NCBI GenBank assembly: GCA_036677365.1 | Contig: JAVBWN010000012.1 | Span: 128,001 to 192,000, forward strand | Direction: 5' to 3' | Length of the DNA stretch: 64,000 bases | Source of the DNA: Acholeplasma sp. | GTDB taxonomy: Bacteria; Bacillota_I; Bacilli_A; Acholeplasmatales; UBA5453 | In this document: positions 21,681-26,362 of the stretch, one piece after another | How the letters are laid out: every line of letters starts with the position of its first letter | Position numbering within the stretch: position 1 is the stretch's first letter | Made by a program: the position numbers and the translations under genes | The notes under the pieces: generated by a model | The model's database searches: none | Seen by the model: the letters and a program-made list of their open reading frames with translations, nothing else | What the model was told of the DNA's origin: nothing

Positions 21681-22800
21681 GGTAGTTTGGGGATGCTTTC
21701 ATGTGTTTTACATCGTGGGGATGGGATTCTTTCAATCCAGCATGGGTAATTTTCATAAATCTGGCGTATAGTTTCATGTCTTCAATGGTTTTACACCCAC
21801 AATAACCCATCCCTGAACGTAAGCCACCCATCATTTGATAAATCACATCATGGATAGGACCTTTATAAGGGACACAAGCTTCAATGCCTTCAGGCACCAA
21901 CTTGTTGAGTTCTTTGACCCCACCTTGGAAGTAGCGGTCAGAAGACCCTCGTTGCATGGCGGTTAAAGACCCCATGCCAATGTAGGTTTTGTATTTTAAA
22001 CCATCTTTTTCAAATACCTCACCAGGGGATTCACTACAGCCAGCGAGTAAACTGCCCATCATCACACAGTCAGCACCTGCAGCGAGTGCTTTCGGGATGT
22101 CACCAGAAAGCTTAATCCCACCATCAGCGATGATCCCAACTTTATATTGTTTCGCAACCGAATACACATCGTTGATAGCGGATAGTTGTGGGACACCTAC
22201 TCCGGCAACCACACGGGTGGTACAAATCGACCCTGGACCAACCCCCACTTTTAAACAGGTTGCGCCAGCATAGATGAGGTCGATGGCTGCTTGTGCAGTG
22301 ACTATGTTCCCACCAATGATGTCTAAATCTGGGTATTTGTGACGTATCGATTTGATGGTTTCAATCACGCCTTTAGAATGACCGTGGGCTGAATCTACCG
22401 CGATGATATCGACCCCTGCAGATACCAACGCATCGATGCGTTCTAAGGTATTCTTAGATACACCCACCGCTGCCCCAACACGTAAACGACCCAATTCATC
22501 TTTGGTTGCGTCGGTTTCATTAAATGTGGCTGATTTAACCAGTTGTATTTCTTTGACTTGGTCTTCAATCGACATATTTTTATGTATGATGCCTAAGCCA
22601 CCCAGTTTCGCTAAAGCGATGGCCATCGTAGACTCTGTCACGGTGTCCATCGCTGCCGATAACACTGGGATGGCTAACGAGATCTTTTTAGTCAATTTCG
22701 TATCGAGTTTGACTTGAATCGGTACGACCTCAGAATATGATGGAACCAACAATAAATCATCAAATGTATAACCCTCAGCGGTTATTTTTTCTTTTAACAT
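21673..22800 (-). CDS. guaB: IMP dehydrogenase, short form lacking the CBS subdomain
   Basis: 'TFDDLLLVP', 'SAAMDTVTE', 'GPGSICTTR', 'ADGGI'. 375 aa, adjacent to guaA. Confidence 0.95.
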
Positions 22801-22971
22801 GAACCCTATCCCCCTTATTTATCAGCCATTTTATCATAGATAAGGGTAAAATAACCCAGTAAAATTGTAAAATAAGGGCTTAAGCGGTTTCACTGGGATT
22901 GATGATTTCATGATTCGGTGTTACAATCAAAAAAGAAGTTCATCGATACTAAATAAAGAAGGTAATGAAAA

Positions 22972-23751
22972 ATGAATAGAAAAAATGTGTTATGGTTTTT
23001 GGGTTTACTATTGGCTTGGCTTTCTTACATCCCACTGGGGTTTCTGATTGTAGAAACCAACGCCTTTGGACAATTGTATGAAAGTTTAAATTTATCACAA
23101 TCCAGTTTACGTTATTACATCACAGAGAATGCGTTTGATATGGCATTTATGGGCATCTTAACGATTGGTTTATTCATCCTATTGATCAATCGTTTTAAAT
23201 ACACCCAGGCAGTTCACTTTAAAATAACAACCATCACTAAAGTGGTTGTTTTGAGTGCTGTGATGATTTCAATCTTAGGTATGGTCATTCAAGTGTTATT
23301 CGCAGGGTCTAACCATCCCTTACATGCCTATATTGGCGAATACATCAAACAATTGTTGTGGGTTGGGATGGTTGAAGAATTGATCTTTAGAGGGTATATA
23401 TTCATTGAACTATTGAAATTGAAATCCTCTAAGTTTAAGTTAATATATATCGTTTTAATATCGGCTTTTATGTTTTCTATCATTCATTTACCAGCCTATT
23501 TCTTATACAACAGCCAATATGATTTATTATCCATTGTTTGGAATTTGATTTTCCCATTTTCCATTGGGGTCTTATATGCGTATCTTTTATATATGAATAA
23601 TGACATCATTTCGCTCATCTTCATTCACACAACCTCAAACATGATTTCATATTACACTGGTATCATGGGTACGGTGTGGCTAGTATTATTTTGGGTGGGA
23701 TTGGGTTATTACACCTATCATTCATATAAAACATATCTTCAAAACAAATAA
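22972..23751 (+). CDS. CPBP (CAAX-type) intramembrane glutamic endopeptidase
   Basis: 'EELIFRG', 'FSIIH', 'IHTTSN' within a multi-transmembrane protein. Confidence 0.85.
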   Translation: MNRKNVLWFLGLLLAWLSYIPLGFLIVETNAFGQLYESLNLSQSSLRYYITENAFDMAFMGILTIGLFILLINRFKYTQAVHFKITTITKVVVLSAVMISILGMVIQVLFAGSNHPLHAYIGEYIKQLLWVGMVEELIFRGYIFIELLKLKSSKFKLIYIVLISAFMFSIIHLPAYFLYNSQYDLLSIVWNLIFPFSIGVLYAYLLYMNNDIISLIFIHTTSNMISYYTGIMGTVWLVLFWVGLGYYTYHSYKTYLQNK

Positions 23752-23800
23752 AGAAGTGCTACTACAGAACAGCATAAGTCAACGATTAGGATATAAAAAT

Positions 23801-23862
23801 AAAAAAACAGAAGCAGTAATCTGGCCTTCTGTTTTTTGAAACTCGATATGAGTTTTCAGGAC
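23801..23862 (-). ncRNA. Putative small RNA (antitoxin-like), copy downstream of the Abi/HEPN gene
   Basis: Own promoter TTGCAT-17-TATAAT (23897-23869). Predicted RNA GUCCUGAAAACUCAUAUCGAGUUUCAAAAAACAGAAGGCCAGAUUACUGCUUCUGUUUUUUU has two hairpins, the second terminator-like. Second copy at 24893-24954. Confidence 0.65.
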
Positions 23863-23868
23863 ATGATT

Positions 23869-23897
23869 ATTATATCACGAGGAATTTTTGTATGCAA
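23869..23897 (-). promoter_or_regulatory. Sigma-70 promoter of the downstream sRNA copy
   Basis: TTGCAT-N17-TATAAT with extended TG, beginning just after the abi stop codon. Confidence 0.75.
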
Positions 23898-23903
23898 AAC
23901 AAA

Positions 23904-24845
23904 TTACTTGAAAGTTGACTGAACAGTTTTACAATCAGATGATAAACCTAAGCTTAGCAACAGTGAGTTAACATTCACTGATCCTTTCTTATTGTAATGA
24001 GCAATCTCTAGTATATTTCGCATTATCGACTTAAAAAAAGTTATATTATCTTGCAACAAGTACGAACAATGGGCAATAGTAGCGAATAATGAAACTTTAT
24101 TTTTATTGAGAATAAAGTGCGGATTGTAAATGTATGGATGAAATTTTGAATTGGAGATTTTTTTCCCCTTTAAAGTATCAAAATCAAGAATAAACTCACC
24201 ATGTGCACAGGCATTTCTCAAGTAGTTTAGCTTCTCTACCACATTATTGAATTCAGAGATTTTTAAATCAAAACTGTTTACAATGCGCTCTTTAATGTCT
24301 TTATTTAGTAACTTGAAAAAGGTCCTAATTTGTCCGAATGTTAAATAGTGAGCAATTACGAATGGTGGCACAGATTCAATGGTAGAAAAATGATATTTAG
24401 CATCTAAATTTTTTTTCTTTTTCGCATAGACTGTCCAGCATTCATCAATAAAAGCAGTTTTTACCGCATTACGATCTTCATCAGTGCCTGTATTAGGGTA
24501 GTCAAAGACATCTACAATAAATGAGTTTATTGTAAAATATGCATAACCATTATCTTTACAATAATATGAATACTCATCTGCAATTTTGTTTCTGATAATT
24601 CTCTCACATCTAAGCACTAACAATAAGACTTCTTTAGAAATTTTTTCATTGGTTTCCTCTAGCCACTTGTAATCTTGAACGGTAAAGAAGGCTAATTTAC
24701 CATCGTGAAAAAGATATTTCTCATAGTTATGGTTAATTAGGTAATAGCTGGTTGTTTTCAAATAAGCTTCAATTTCTTTCTTAGTTGAAATACAACCTTT
24801 TTCAATTTGTCGATTTACTTGTCCTTCTAAAGTTAATGGCTCCAT
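23904..24845 (-). CDS. Abi-like protein (Abi_2/AbiD/AbiF family, HEPN RNase)
   Basis: N-terminal 'LTLEGQV..QIEKG...LKTTSYY', 'PPFVIAHYLTFGQ', and HEPN motif 'LRNACAH'. GAGGTG RBS. AT-rich. Confidence 0.85.
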   Translation of the reverse strand: MEPLTLEGQVNRQIEKGCISTKKEIEAYLKTTSYYLINHNYEKYLFHDGKLAFFTVQDYKWLEETNEKISKEVLLLVLRCERIIRNKIADEYSYYCKDNGYAYFTINSFIVDVFDYPNTGTDEDRNAVKTAFIDECWTVYAKKKKNLDAKYHFSTIESVPPFVIAHYLTFGQIRTFFKLLNKDIKERIVNSFDLKISEFNNVVEKLNYLRNACAHGEFILDFDTLKGKKISNSKFHPYIYNPHFILNKNKVSLFATIAHCSYLLQDNITFFKSIMRNILEIAHYNKKGSVNVNSLLLSLGLSSDCKTVQSTFK

Positions 24846-24892
24846 ATGTTCACACCTCTAAAGTTTATATATTAGGTATATTATAACATAAT

Positions 24893-24954
24893 AAAAAAAA
24901 CAGAAGCAGTAATCTGGCCTTCTGTTTTTTGAAACCATCAATCGGTTTCAGGAC
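24893..24954 (-). ncRNA. Putative small RNA (antitoxin-like), copy upstream of the Abi/HEPN gene
   Basis: Own promoter TTGACT-17-TATTAT (24990-24962). Predicted RNA GUCCUGAAACCGAUUGAUGGUUUCAAAAAACAGAAGGCCAGAUUACUGCUUCUGUUUUUUUU shares a 42-nt identical core with 23801-23842. Confidence 0.7.
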
Positions 24955-24961
24955 ATAATCA

Positions 24962-24990
24962 ATAATACCATAACGTGATTTTGTAGTCAA
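24962..24990 (-). promoter_or_regulatory. Sigma-70 promoter of the upstream sRNA / abi operon
   Basis: TTGACT-N17-TATTAT with extended TG. Confidence 0.7.
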
Positions 24991-25129
24991 TCCATTTTAG
25001 AACAAACTAAAAAAAATGCAAAATTGTAGAATAAGTATAATCTATATTCTATGAAAAGCGTATAAGATAGAATAATACAATGATTATTCGTTTATTTTCT
25101 AGTATAATGATATAGTGAAGGTGAAAGAA

Positions 25130-26278
25130 ATGGATAAATTTGTAAGTTACGAAAAACGATTCTATAACCCTGAATTTACGGATACAAAGTTAGCGAAAAG
25201 AAAAAGAATGATGACAGATAAGCCTTATCTAAGTGCTACTATTAAGGATTTATCCCAAATAAAGATAGAAATCAGTCAAGAAACACAAGATTTGTTACTA
25301 GACTCGGTAGAAGGTTTAGCAAGACTTGATGGATATGTTCATCATTATCGAGATTTAATTTCTATGGTCATGCTAAGAGCTGAAGCTTTATCTAGTTCAC
25401 AAATAGAACATTATAGTGCCTCTAATCGAAGCGTGGCATTGGCACAAATTCACAAAAAGCAATCCACAGAAGCCATGATCATCAAATCCAACTTAGAGTC
25501 TTTGATTTTAGGTATTTCATCAAAAGAACCACTAGATACAAGTAAAATCATCCAATTGAATCAAACACTTTTAAAAAATCCAACCATGGACGTGCGTACC
25601 CGAATCAATTGGATTGGGACACCCAATTCTATACCCCATGAAGCAACCTATGTGCCACCACACCCTGAGCATCTTAATTTGTTTATGAGTCAGTTCATAG
25701 CTTTTTGTAATAGAAATGACATGCACCCATTGATTCAGTCAGCTATAGCTCATGCCTATTTTGAACTCATTCATCCATTCGAAGATGGAAATGGTCGTGT
25801 TGGCAGAATACTCATTCAGTGTTTATTAAGAGAAAAGCAGTTTTTAGAATTTCTTTCAATGCCATTTTCTGTAGGGATTGTTCATGATCAAGTCAGGTAC
25901 ATTCAAGCACTAAATGATTTTAAAGAAGGCAATTATGAGACCATCATTATTGTGCTATTAGAAAACACATTATACCTCGTACCCAAAGTGTATGATACAC
26001 TAGAAAAACTCATAAAACTCAAACAAAACTGGAAAGCCAAATTGAACATTCGACAAGATGCCCTAGCATGGAAAATACTGGATGATTTGATTGCACAACC
26101 CGTCATTGATGTAAAATATATTAGAGAAAAACACCAAGCCAATGATCAAGCTGTCAGAAATAACATACAAACGCTTGTGAATGTAGGTATCTTAAACATC
26201 ATAGGTAACGATAGTCGTGATGTTGCTTATGAATCCATTGAGGTATTGGATTTATTAGACCAATTCTCTAAAAAATAA
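25130..26278 (+). CDS. Fic family protein (probable AMP-transferase) with C-terminal HTH-like region
   Basis: Canonical HPFEDGNGRVGR. N-terminal 'SSQIEH' resembles the (S/T)xxxE(G/N) autoinhibitory helix. Confidence 0.9.
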   Translation: MDKFVSYEKRFYNPEFTDTKLAKRKRMMTDKPYLSATIKDLSQIKIEISQETQDLLLDSVEGLARLDGYVHHYRDLISMVMLRAEALSSSQIEHYSASNRSVALAQIHKKQSTEAMIIKSNLESLILGISSKEPLDTSKIIQLNQTLLKNPTMDVRTRINWIGTPNSIPHEATYVPPHPEHLNLFMSQFIAFCNRNDMHPLIQSAIAHAYFELIHPFEDGNGRVGRILIQCLLREKQFLEFLSMPFSVGIVHDQVRYIQALNDFKEGNYETIIIVLLENTLYLVPKVYDTLEKLIKLKQNWKAKLNIRQDALAWKILDDLIAQPVIDVKYIREKHQANDQAVRNNIQTLVNVGILNIIGNDSRDVAYESIEVLDLLDQFSKK

Positions 26279-26362
26279 ATCAGAACCTGTCATTTAGCGA
26301 AGTATTCTCACCAATAAATAAAAGCATTTTATCGTATATTATATGTAAGAAAGGATGACATC

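What the first reader, a model, noticed from the sequence alone, without database searches (positions are those of the whole stretch)
23801..24990. Abi_2/AbiF-type HEPN gene sandwiched between two separately promoted copies of a structured ~62-nt RNA: candidate type III toxin-antitoxin / anti-phage ribonucleoprotein
Seen: a 42-nt identical core (23801-23842 = 24894-24935) plus a shared TTTCAGGACAT flanks the 313-aa RNACAH protein. Each copy has its own sigma-70 promoter on the gene's strand with 17-nt spacing (TTGACT/TATTAT and TTGCAT/TATAAT), although the spacers differ. Both predicted RNAs start near GUCCUG and contain hairpin 1, then a 12-bp hairpin 2 with an invariant 12-nt loop (GCCAGAUUACUG) and a U tail. 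Known: promoter-RNA-terminator-toxin is the type III TA layout, and AbiF-family HEPN nucleases are associated with a cis-encoded ncRNA. Inference: an RNA-inhibited HEPN RNase with an unusual second antitoxin gene downstream.
Basis: partly seen in the sequence, partly recalled or inferred. Interest (0 to 1): 0.9.

Follow-up and report, generated by a model that had tools for sequence, protein, structure and literature searches.

The report
AbiF-like toxin flanked by small RNAs
A phage-defence RNase gene of the AbiF/AbiD family sits between two separately transcribed copies of a conserved 62-base folded RNA that is most likely its antidote, and relatives show that the copy behind the gene, not the one in front, is the constant partner.

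Summary
A 42-nt exact repeat (23801-23842 = 24894-24935) flanks a 313-aa Abi_2 gene and has just these two copies in the 1.97-Mb genome.

Each copy is a ~62-nt two-hairpin RNA on the gene's strand, with its own promoter and U-tailed terminator. In five diverged lineages (proteins 58-69% identical) the RNA recurs. All 152 base-pair cells pair, 5 pairs show compensatory changes, and the RNA is more conserved than the ORF.

The protein's only significant structural match is PbAbiF bound to its ncRNA (8VZ6), a proven type III toxin. The best reading is therefore an RNA-neutralised HEPN RNase.

- The RNA is not the Rfam abiF motif.
- abi has its own promoter after the upstream terminator.
- The downstream copy is the constant one (4 of 4 visible flanks), while the upstream copy is optional (3 of 5).

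A second Abi_2 clade on plasmids (6 of 6 loci) and a paralog in this genome also carry a downstream RNA with its own promoter. Binding, toxicity and expression are untested.

Verdict: a new variant of a known kind.

The parts
24962..24990 (-). Promoter of the upstream sRNA copy: -35 TTGACT, 17-nt spacer, extended -10 TGGTATTAT
   Evidence: 10 of 12 matches, TG present. The -35 TT and the TGnTAnnnT box align without gaps across 6 copies.
24893..24954 (-). Upstream sRNA copy, 62 nt. It has a 5' GUCCU tail and hairpin 1 (GAAACC/GGUUUC). Hairpin 2 is a 12-bp stem, a GC bulge, a CAG/CUG stem and an AUUA loop, followed by a U8 tail.
   Evidence: Fold; covariance model R1 scores 85.8 bits, E 3.4e-15; pair counts.
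24880..24888 (-). Extended -10 box TGTTATAAT: abi's own promoter, between the upstream terminator and the ribosome-binding site
   Evidence: The same box lies 28-45 nt before the ATG in 5 of 5 diverged lineages. The background rate is 189 hits over the window's two strands.
23904..24845 (-). abi gene, 313 aa: Abi_2/AbiD-F family HEPN protein with motif R210-N-A-C-A-H215. The ribosome-binding site AGAGGUG lies at 24853-24859.
   Evidence: Pfam; PADLOC AbiD at E 7.3e-23; motif residues R210, N211, C213, A214, H215 and G216 invariant in all 14 aligned sequences, A212 not; fold match to 8vz6_A.
23869..23898 (-). Promoter of the downstream sRNA copy: TTTGCA-18 (or TTGCAT-17), extended -10 TGATATAAT. 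It starts 6 nt after the abi stop codon.
23801..23862 (-). Downstream sRNA copy, 62 nt, with the same architecture. Hairpin 1 differs from the upstream copy through compensatory changes (CUC/GAG against CC/GG). It also lies in the 3' untranslated region of any abi transcript, and its terminator faces the convergent CAAX-protease gene.
   Evidence: R1 scores 89.2 bits, E 7e-16; fold. No terminator-like site lies between the abi stop and this RNA on the minus strand.

Best explanation
This is a type III toxin-antitoxin-like abortive-infection module of the AbiF/AbiD (Abi_2) family.

The toxin. The 313-aa protein is a HEPN RNase that probably works as a homodimer, with the RNxxxH motifs meeting at the interface.

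The RNA. Its partner is a 62-nt small RNA with three parts: a single-stranded 5' GUCCU tail, hairpin 1, and hairpin 2 with a conserved GC bulge. Hairpin 2 doubles as an intrinsic terminator. The RNA is made from its own strong promoters (a -35 box plus an extended -10). The toxin gene has only an extended -10 box, so the RNA should be in excess. By analogy with PbAbiF-AbiFr and AbiF(Cd)-RCd22, one RNA binds each protein subunit and blocks the RNase. Phage infection, or loss of the RNA supply, would free the RNase and stop growth.

The layout. Here it is [P-RNA-T][P-abi][P-RNA-T]. The constant element in relatives is the downstream RNA gene. No terminator separates abi from it, so every abi mRNA should also carry one antidote in its 3' UTR, and the toxin or a host RNase could release it. 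The upstream copy adds dosage and shields abi from upstream transcription.

Shown by computation: the repeat, the promoters, the conserved covarying structure, the link to abi, the protein's family and fold, and the variable position of the RNA.

Inferred: transcription of the small RNAs, RNA-protein binding, toxicity, neutralisation, release from the 3' UTR, and anti-phage function.
For: RNA gene is real and linked to abi:
- Only 2 copies exist in the genome.
- The core pattern was found in 1 of 401 genomes of the class, the window's own.
- The RNA is present in all 5 diverged lineages that encode the protein, and the neighbouring genes differ in each.
- A same-genus genome has the neighbouring CAAX gene at 76% identity without the RNA, though only 227 nt remain there before the contig ends.

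Structure:
- There are 22 pairs, and 152 of 152 cells pair.
- 5 pairs change on both sides, and 0 of 500 shuffles reach this.
- Slid controls pair in only 49-57% of cells. RNAalifold agrees.

Strand: R1 scores 72-89 bits on the gene strand and at most 24.4 on the other.

Selection on the RNA: it is 80-93% identical between lineages against 69-73% for the ORF DNA, and higher in 10 of 10 pairs.

Promoters: every full-length copy has TGnTAnnnT 7-8 nt before GUCCUG.

Protein:
- Pfam Abi_2 and PADLOC AbiD.
- HEPN motif residues R210, N211, C213, A214, H215 and G216 invariant in all 14 aligned sequences; A212 is not.
- AlphaFold model with pLDDT 90.1.
- The only PDB match at E<=0.001 is 8vz6_A, 'PbAbiF dimer bound to ncRNA': E 7.5e-6, TM 0.67/0.70. 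The profile match to the same chain has E 1.6e-4.

Homodimer model:
- It scores 0.73 against 0.00 for the best control. That mark was reached by 20 of 30 proteins solved as pairs of one chain and by 1 of 23 solved as single chains.
- The runs agree in at least 80% of contacts, the partner's pLDDT is at least 87, and residues 214-216 lie at the interface.
- A like complex is solved, so this pass may be from memory.

Literature:
- AbiF(Cd) is toxic and is neutralised by the ncRNA RCd22 in cis and in trans (bioRxiv 10.1101/2025.04.15.648962; abstract and sections 5, 6 and 12 read).
- A PbAbiF dimer binds two ncRNAs (reviews PMC12737573 and PMC13064643; passages read).
Against: - No experiment or read data shows the 62-nt RNAs. 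The two RNA-library contigs laid on the locus cover part of the abi ORF and the CAAX/terminator end only, and they cannot show strand or ends.
- The RNA does not match RF03085 and lacks that motif's 3' internal loop. So the way it would block the active site cannot be carried over from 8VZ6.
- The protein is only 16% identical to PbAbiF.
- abi's own promoter rests on a short motif.
- Only five lineages are available, all but the window's own from metagenome contigs. One has no visible downstream flank, and one upstream copy is cut by a contig end.
- The primary paper on PbAbiF (Cell 2025) is not held, so I cannot exclude that it already describes downstream ncRNAs.
Confidence: 0.7

Rival explanations
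1. The RNA is a required cofactor, sensor or guide-like partner of the nuclease rather than, or as well as, an antidote. The protein would be inactive or mis-targeted without it, as a Cas13 needs its crRNA. The variable hairpin-1 loop would then set specificity.
For: Cloning lactococcal abiF without its upstream promoter-terminator element gave no phage resistance (PMC11381338, passages read). AbiF is reported as the ancestor of Cas13 (PMC12737573, passages). Within the window the two copies are identical except in hairpin 1 and its loop.
Against: In the two AbiF systems with experiments, the RNA neutralises toxicity (bioRxiv 10.1101/2025.04.15.648962; PMC13064643). The variable part is only 4-7 nt. 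L008 and L010 have a single RNA gene.
Confidence: 0.14
2. The elements act only in cis as transcription punctuation, that is promoter-terminator insulators or an attenuating leader around an acquired gene. The short transcript would have no function of its own.
For: Hairpin 2 with its A-tract and U-tract can terminate in both directions, and single-sequence folds are equally good on both strands. RCd22 also acts in cis by premature termination (bioRxiv 10.1101/2025.04.15.648962, section 12).
Against: - Unpaired bases (GUCCU, the GC bulge, GGCCAG) are invariant across lineages whose ORFs are only about 70% identical in DNA. A terminator does not need that.
- A promoter sits at a fixed distance in every copy.
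- Downstream copies have no gene to regulate, and abi has its own -10 box after the upstream terminator.
- The model scores far higher on the gene strand.
Confidence: 0.08
3. The small RNA represses abi by base-pairing with its ribosome-binding site, acting as a trans antisense antitoxin.
For: The 5' tail UCCU could pair with AGGA-like Shine-Dalgarno sequences. One of six duplexes (W_up) beats 97% of shuffles.
Against: Five of six RNA/5'-UTR duplexes are no better than shuffled UTRs (fractions 0.35-0.555), and tail-only duplexes reach just -2.6 to -5.6 kcal/mol. L009 has GACCUG.
Confidence: 0.04
4. The two copies are a duplication or recombination scar of a mobile cassette and have no present function.
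For: They are direct repeats flanking an accessory gene that is absent from 21 genomes of the same family and from 306 other genomes of the order. An IS-like ORF lies beside the gene in L008, with Pfam matches below their cut-offs.
Against: Single-copy lineages keep the RNA intact with its promoter. Compensatory changes keep both stems. The copies differ in promoter spacers and hairpin 1 yet keep the core, which points to selection and not a recent scar.
Confidence: 0.03

Closest known systems
PbAbiF-AbiFr (PDB 8VZ6; Zilberzwige-Tal et al., Cell 2025, known to me only through reviews PMC12737573 and PMC13064643)
   Same: Same protein family and full-length fold, a HEPN RNxxxH motif, a predicted symmetric dimer, and a short structured ncRNA encoded next to the gene.
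   Different: The proteins are 16% identical. The RNA here is a two-hairpin terminator-bearing sRNA with its own promoter, lying downstream or on both sides. The reviews place the known ncRNA upstream (PMC13064643). Binding is not shown here.
AbiF(Cd)-RCd22 of Clostridioides difficile prophage phi027 and phage phiC2 (bioRxiv 10.1101/2025.04.15.648962)
   Same: A SigA-type promoter, a ~100-nt ncRNA, a terminator and then abiF, as with the upstream copy here. The RNA acts in trans as well.
   Different: RCd22 carries two RF03085 motifs in one molecule and is co-transcribed with abiF by read-through, with no promoter predicted in between. Here there is one motif per RNA, two RNA genes, a separate abi promoter and no RF03085 match.
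Rfam abiF motif RF03085
   Same: Both are small hairpins beside Abi_2 genes. The topology is loosely alike: a lower stem, a 5' bulge, a 3-bp upper stem and a loop.
   Different: There is no hit at E<=10. The 6-nt 3' internal loop (CAAAUC) is missing, and an extra 5' hairpin and tail are present. My model R1 finds nothing in phiC2.
Lactococcal AbiD / AbiD1 / AbiF / AbiD-like (AbiD/F group)
   Same: PADLOC assigns the protein to AbiD. A short flanking element with a strong promoter and terminator is needed for activity or cloning, and it is more conserved than the gene (PMC11381338 and PMC13064643, passages). The RNA here is likewise more conserved than its ORF.
   Different: Those elements are described upstream only. 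tblastn identity to Abi genes in the plasmid and phage collections is 23-37%.
ToxIN / CptIN / TenpIN type III systems
   Same: A protein RNase toxin, an RNA antitoxin, a terminator that sets the RNA-to-toxin ratio, and abortive infection.
   Different: Those have tandem repeat arrays upstream, processed into pseudoknots, and unrelated toxin folds (PMC3401426, passages). Here there is no tandem array and the toxin is a HEPN protein.

Membership tests
Abi_2 / AbiD-F HEPN proteins (Pfam PF07751) | Match to PF07751 above its gathering score | tested here: met
   67 bits against a cut-off of 25.6, E 3.4e-18, covering residues 28-218. PADLOC AbiD at E 7.3e-23.
Abi_2 / AbiD-F HEPN proteins (Pfam PF07751) | HEPN catalytic motif R-(N/H/D)-x-x-x-H | tested here: met
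   R210-N211-A-C-A-H215. Residues R210, N211, C213, A214, H215 and G216 are invariant in all 14 aligned sequences; A212 is not. The motif aligns with RNSCCH of 8vz6_A.
Abi_2 / AbiD-F HEPN proteins (Pfam PF07751) | AbiF fold over the whole protein | tested here: met
   The model has pLDDT 90.1. 8vz6_A matches at TM 0.67/0.70, probability 1.00, and is the only hit at E<=0.001.
Abi_2 / AbiD-F HEPN proteins (Pfam PF07751) | Homodimer with HEPN motifs at the interface | tested here: inconclusive
   Prediction only. The score is 0.73 against 0.00 for the best control, a mark reached by 20 of 30 solved homo-pairs and 1 of 23 single chains. The runs agree in at least 80% of contacts, the partner's pLDDT is at least 87, and residues 214-216 lie at the interface. 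A like complex (8VZ6) is solved, so the pass may be from memory.
Type III toxin-antitoxin system (AbiF type) | A conserved structured ncRNA encoded beside the toxin gene | tested here: met
   Present in 5 of 5 lineages. The RNA is more conserved than the ORF.
Type III toxin-antitoxin system (AbiF type) | The RNA binds the toxin and neutralises it, and the toxin alone arrests growth | not testable with these tools
   No RNA-protein modelling or experiment is available here. This is inferred from homology to 8VZ6 and RCd22.
Type III toxin-antitoxin system (AbiF type) | Layout of promoter, RNA, terminator and toxin, with the toxin expressed by read-through | tested here: inconclusive
   The upstream copy has this order in the window, L009 and L011. 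It is absent in L008 and L010, and an extended -10 box follows the terminator in 5 of 5 lineages. Read-through may therefore add to toxin expression, but it is not required.
ToxIN-type type III systems | A tandem array of short repeats upstream of the toxin | tested here: not met
   There are only two copies, 1093 nt apart, and no tandem family in 23000-25800. Tandem Repeats Finder was not run.
Rfam abiF RNA (RF03085) | Covariance-model score at or above 37 bits | tested here: not met
   No hit at E<=10 in 22800-26300, none in the whole genome, and none in L008-L011 at E<=1. The positive control in phiC2 scores 37.6 bits.

The most novel reading that the evidence does not exclude
A separately promoted small RNA encoded just behind the gene may be the general partner of Abi_2/AbiD-F nucleases, not a peculiarity of this clade. 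The published 'upstream ncRNA' layout would then be one variant among several.

In this 'toxin-first' design each toxin mRNA ends in its own antidote, which is then cut out. The RNA gene's own promoter supplies the excess.

Three unrelated RNA families sit in this position in what I sampled:
- this one, in 4 of 4 visible downstream flanks;
- a three-hairpin RNA behind a second Abi_2 clade on plasmids of Lactococcus, Streptococcus, Pediococcus, Fusobacterium and Leptotrichia, in 6 of 6 loci;
- a two-hairpin RNA behind the 19%-identical paralog in this genome.

Many 'single-gene' Abi_2 systems would then have an overlooked RNA component on their 3' side.
Probability: 0.35. Interest if true: 0.75.

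Novelty: new variant of a known kind. Interest (0 to 1): 0.6.

Why it matters
AbiF-type nucleases are the proposed ancestors of Cas13, and their RNA partners are the proposed forerunners of crRNAs. The cases studied so far place the RNA in front of the gene, co-transcribed with it.

This locus shows a different RNA family. It has its own promoter and terminator, it is constant behind the gene and optional in front of it. The same 3' position recurs in two other Abi_2 lineages that I sampled.

If confirmed, this would:
- widen the search space for RNA partners of 'orphan' Abi_2 defence genes, because the 3' flank is usually cut off when such genes are cloned;
- give a compact toxin/RNA pair for testing how RNA dosage from independent promoters keeps a HEPN RNase silent;
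- add a layout with an effector followed by its RNA gene, which resembles the effector-then-array order of many CRISPR loci.

Tried and rejected
Rfam and the abiF motif
- An Rfam scan of the region at E<=10 gave only chance-level hits to terminator-like sRNAs: sraA and STnc40 at 20-23 bits against cut-offs of 45-56.
- RF03085 had no hit in the whole genome.

Searches for more loci
- Genome-contig scans with the protein and with the alignment found no relatives.
- Viral-contig scans with the core pattern and with the alignment found none.
- The protein was found in 0 of 21 other genomes of the family and 0 of 306 other genomes of the order.
- The pattern was found in 0 of 400 other genomes of the class.
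- blastn of the RNA against plasmids found nothing. blastn with the L016 RNA recovered only itself, so the method is too insensitive for RNAs this short.

Expression
- One RNA-library contig of 455 nt lies inside the abi ORF (24208-24662, 5 differences).
- One contig of 151 nt covers 23700-23844 and ends just past hairpin 2.
- Contigs show neither strand nor ends, and DNA carry-over is possible. This is no evidence for or against the small RNAs.

Other ideas tested
- Antisense pairing of the sRNA to the abi RBS is not better than shuffled controls in 5 of 6 pairs.
- A decayed upstream RNA in L008 or L010 is not credible. There is no convincing alignment, and the folds have z -1.1 and +0.36. 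A short stretch in L008 (CCTCAG followed by a T-run) may be a remnant of the 3' end, which I leave open.
- The 41-aa ORF at 24865-24990 starts in the -35 box and overlaps the upstream RNA. An AUG inside hairpin 1 exists only in the upstream copy. I reject both as coding.
- Direct repeats flanking abi in the distant loci L003 and L016-L019: none of 14 nt or more that correspond to an RNA.
- Notes of earlier scans: nothing near the locus or alike in sequence. One word hit from another genome has no bearing here.

Literature
- The primary Cell 2025 paper is not held.
- A search for type III systems with the antitoxin downstream found nothing relevant.
Full report

Window 23801-23842 and 24894-24935 are identical over 42 nt, and both copies continue into a shared TTTCAGGACAT. 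A 30-nt core allowing 3 mismatches occurs twice in the window against 0.00 expected from shuffles. The window's own genome (1,967,679 bases, 37 contigs, 99.86% complete) holds these two copies and no others, by BLAST and by the covariance model built later.

Between the copies lies ORF 23904-24845(-), 313 aa. It matches Pfam Abi_2 at 67 bits against a cut-off of 25.6 and PADLOC AbiD at E 7.3e-23. It carries the HEPN motif RNACAH at residues 210-215.

The promoter scan finds TTGACT-17-TATTAT (24990-24962) and TTTGCA-18-TATAAT (23898-23869) on the minus strand, each 10 of 12 with a TG extension. Each 63-nt stretch folds into two hairpins, at -20.3 and -18.0 kcal/mol and z about -4.

2. THE RNA IS A CONSERVED, COVARYING, STRAND-SPECIFIC GENE TIED TO abi

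Relatives. The word-indexed protein search returned 16 proteins, 13 of them full-length relatives at 54-78% identity. In the exhaustive search only one 50%-identity cluster scores below E 1e-10, and the next relative is 24% identical. This is therefore a small, isolated Abi_2 clade.

Loci with DNA. A metagenome scan gave six loci:
- L006 and L007 are 100% and 99% identical, so they are the same lineage as the window.
- L008 is 64% identical, L009 66% and L010 58%.
- L011 is 69% identical, and its gene is cut by the contig end.

The RNA is in all of them.

Structure. I aligned seven copies (A2).
- An explicit two-hairpin structure of 22 pairs is fully kept: 152 of 152 cells pair.
- 5 pairs change on both sides. 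One position reads A-U, C-G or U-A.
- 0 of 500 column shuffles reach any of the five measures.
- Sliding the 3' partners drops pairing to 49-57%.
- RNAalifold predicts essentially the same structure on its own.

Unpaired letters are invariant too: the 5' G-CCUG, the GAAAC/GUUUC stem ends and GGCCAG...CUGC. The apical loop varies in sequence and length (4-7 nt).

Strand. Covariance model R1 scores 72-89 bits on the gene strand and at most 24.4 bits on the opposite strand. G-U pairs and the 5' tail therefore fix the strand, which single-sequence folding could not do.

Conservation. The RNA is 80-93% identical between lineages against 69-73% for the ORF DNA, and higher in 10 of 10 pairs.

Linkage. 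The neighbouring genes differ in every lineage:
- CAAX protease and Fic in the window.
- An IS-like ORF and a VWA protein in L008.
- An AdoMet-decarboxylase-like gene and an O-antigen ligase in L010.

A same-genus genome has the CAAX gene at 76% identity but not the RNA behind it, though only 227 nt remain there before the contig end. The element belongs to abi.

Every full-length RNA copy has an extended -10 box (TGnTAnnnT) ending 7-8 nt before GUCCUG, and most have a TTG -35 box. These align without gaps.

A further extended -10 box lies between the upstream terminator and the abi start codon, at 24880-24888 (TGTTATAAT). A box of this kind lies 28-45 nt before the ATG in 5 of 5 lineages. The motif occurs 189 times on the window's two strands, about 0.0015 per position. 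abi therefore most likely has its own, weaker promoter and need not rely on terminator read-through.

The position of the RNA also varies:
- Both sides in the window lineage and in L009. The L009 upstream copy is cut by the contig end, but R1 finds it at 33.4 bits.
- Upstream in L011, where the downstream flank is not held.
- Downstream only in L008 and L010, with 1318 and 1500 nt of upstream sequence searched.

No convincing relic is left upstream in L008 or L010.

The downstream copy is thus present in 4 of 4 visible flanks, and the upstream copy in 3 of 5. The downstream RNA starts 23-41 nt after the stop codon, so its promoter overlaps the end of abi. No terminator-like site lies between them on the minus strand. 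An abi transcript should therefore run into the RNA and end at its terminator.

4. THE PROTEIN

The AlphaFold model built on 14 sequences is confident, with pLDDT 90.1 and pTM 0.84. Its only PDB match at E<=0.001 is 8vz6_A, 'PbAbiF dimer bound to ncRNA': E 7.5e-6, probability 1.00, TM 0.67/0.70 over 320 columns, 16% identity. A sequence profile finds the same chain at E 1.6e-4 across the HEPN motif.

A two-copy complex prediction scores 0.73 against 0.00 for the best of three controls. That mark was reached by 20 of 30 proteins solved as pairs of one chain and by 1 of 23 solved as single chains. The runs agree in at least 80% of contacts, and the partner's pLDDT is at least 87. Residues 214-216 of the motif sit at the symmetric interface. 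Because a like complex is solved, this shows likeness and may be from memory.

5. WHAT IS KNOWN

- AbiF(Cd) of C. difficile phage phi027 is toxic and is neutralised in cis and in trans by RCd22. RCd22 is a ~100-nt ncRNA with a SigA promoter and a terminator upstream of abiF, it is co-transcribed by read-through, and it carries two RF03085 motifs (bioRxiv 10.1101/2025.04.15.648962; abstract and sections 5, 6 and 12 read).
- A PbAbiF dimer binds two ncRNAs that block the HEPN site, and AbiF is proposed as the ancestor of Cas13. I know this only through passages of the reviews PMC12737573 and PMC13064643, because the primary paper is not held.
- Lactococcal AbiD1, AbiF and AbiD-like need a short upstream promoter-terminator element (PMC11381338, passages).
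- Everything I could read places the RNA upstream. Two searches for a downstream arrangement found nothing relevant.

The Rfam abiF model does not match this RNA at E<=10. The same tool finds the motif in phiC2 at 37.6 bits, and R1 finds nothing there. The two hairpins share only a loose topology, and this RNA lacks the 3' internal loop of RF03085.

6. MECHANISM

The best-supported reading (0.7) is a type III toxin-antitoxin-like Abi module. A dimeric HEPN RNase is held inactive by a 62-nt sRNA made in excess from strong promoters of its own. The constant downstream gene also places one antidote in the 3' UTR of each toxin mRNA. The optional upstream gene adds dosage and insulation.

Computation shows the anatomy, conservation, linkage, family and fold. 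Transcription of the sRNAs, binding, toxicity, processing and defence are inferred.

Rivals, and what counts against each:
- A required cofactor or guide-like RNA (0.14). In the studied AbiF systems the RNA neutralises toxicity.
- Cis-only transcription punctuation (0.08). Unpaired letters are invariant, and downstream copies regulate nothing.
- Antisense pairing to the RBS (0.04). Duplexes are no better than shuffles in 5 of 6 pairs.
- A mobility scar (0.03).

The read evidence is uninformative.

7. A WIDER PATTERN, ONLY PARTLY FOLLOWED UP

The genome's second Abi_2 gene (contig 16, locus L003) is 19% identical to this one. It has TTGACT-17-TATAAT overlapping its stop codon. After that comes a 68-nt two-hairpin RNA at -21.3 kcal/mol and z -4.75, against -13.9 on the other strand, lying between convergent genes.

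A second Abi_2 clade sits on plasmids of Lactococcus (2), Streptococcus salivarius, Pediococcus, Fusobacterium and Leptotrichia. Its proteins are 37-46% identical to the L016 query. The window protein matches these plasmid Abi genes at 24-37% identity over 27-80% of its length.
- In 6 of 6 loci, a promoter stands shortly after the stop codon (TTGACA/TTGACG-17-TAnAnT in 5, by my reading TTGAAG-17-TATAAT in L030). An RNA follows it. The RNA has a conserved GCUCUUAAGAGC-type hairpin, a second hairpin of unrelated sequence but kept pairing, a UCGAnA-like linker and a variable terminator.
- Five of the six were folded, and all five give the same three-hairpin shape. L030 was not folded.
- No same-strand gene is annotated right behind any of them. 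The plasmid gene tables are incomplete.
- Neither RNA is in Rfam (for L003, L016 and L019).

No formal covariation count was made for this second family.

8. VERDICT

Novelty: a new variant of a known kind. The RNA family is new, and its 3' position with an independent promoter is not described in the papers I could read.

Limits:
- Only five lineages are available.
- There is no expression or binding data.
- One key paper and its supplements were not seen.

Noticed in passing
G000 contig 16, locus L003:1103-1205(-), behind ORF L003:1189-2085(-): A second Abi_2 gene in the same genome (298 aa, 19% identical) has a TTGACT-17-TATAAT promoter overlapping its stop codon. A 68-nt two-hairpin RNA with a U-tail follows (-21.3 kcal/mol, z -4.75). 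Its first stem, AAACUC/GAGUUU, equals hairpin 1 of the window's downstream copy. No relatives with DNA were found (0 of 306 other genomes of the order), so conservation is untested.
   Followed up: partly
L016:1790-1900, L019:1865-1968, L029:1640-1760, L030:1660-1785, L031:1270-1390, L032:1450-1585 (all + strand): A second Abi_2 clade on plasmids from two phyla carries, in 6 of 6 loci, a downstream three-hairpin sRNA with its own promoter. It has an invariant-looking GCUCUUAAGAGC hairpin and stems that keep pairing with unrelated sequences. It is not in Rfam (for L016 and L019). No covariance model or pair count was made.
   Followed up: partly
window 25115-26278 (+): The divergent neighbour is a Fic/DOC protein that matches the PADLOC defence family SoFic (E 6e-60). 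Same-genus genomes hold only 24-28% identical relatives. abi and Fic therefore form a small accessory defence islet between guaBA/CAAX and an S8 peptidase.
   Followed up: partly
L017:600-800 and 1800-1980 (Streptococcus phage IPP38): This distant Abi_2 gene has an upstream promoter-RNA-terminator element. Downstream there is a TTGACA-17-TACACT promoter followed by hairpins, but an integrase gene follows on the same strand, so the downstream element may be its leader. A sub-threshold Rfam hit (Spy779816, 41.8 bits against a cut-off of 67) lies there on the opposite strand.
   Followed up: no
L016:690-735 and 1835-1850: The Lactococcus plasmid locus has AGCTTGTAAG both in the element upstream of abi and in the first hairpin of the downstream RNA. 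GGTATAATT...AAAATA also occurs both before abi and after the downstream RNA (family D2). This hints at related elements on both sides there too.
   Followed up: no
L008:99-1025 (-): An ORF with weak, below-cut-off matches to IS-type transposase domains lies just upstream of the abi gene that lacks the upstream RNA copy. An insertion may have removed that copy.
   Followed up: no
L023:100-210 (same-genus genome G008, behind its CAAX-protease gene): Two successive imperfect palindromes of the form GTAGAATAA...TTATTCTA follow the CAAX gene where the window has the abi module. Their nature is unknown.
   Followed up: no
window 24865-24990 (-): A 41-aa TTG-started ORF covers the upstream promoter and RNA. 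It is listed mechanically and is almost certainly not a gene.
   Followed up: partly
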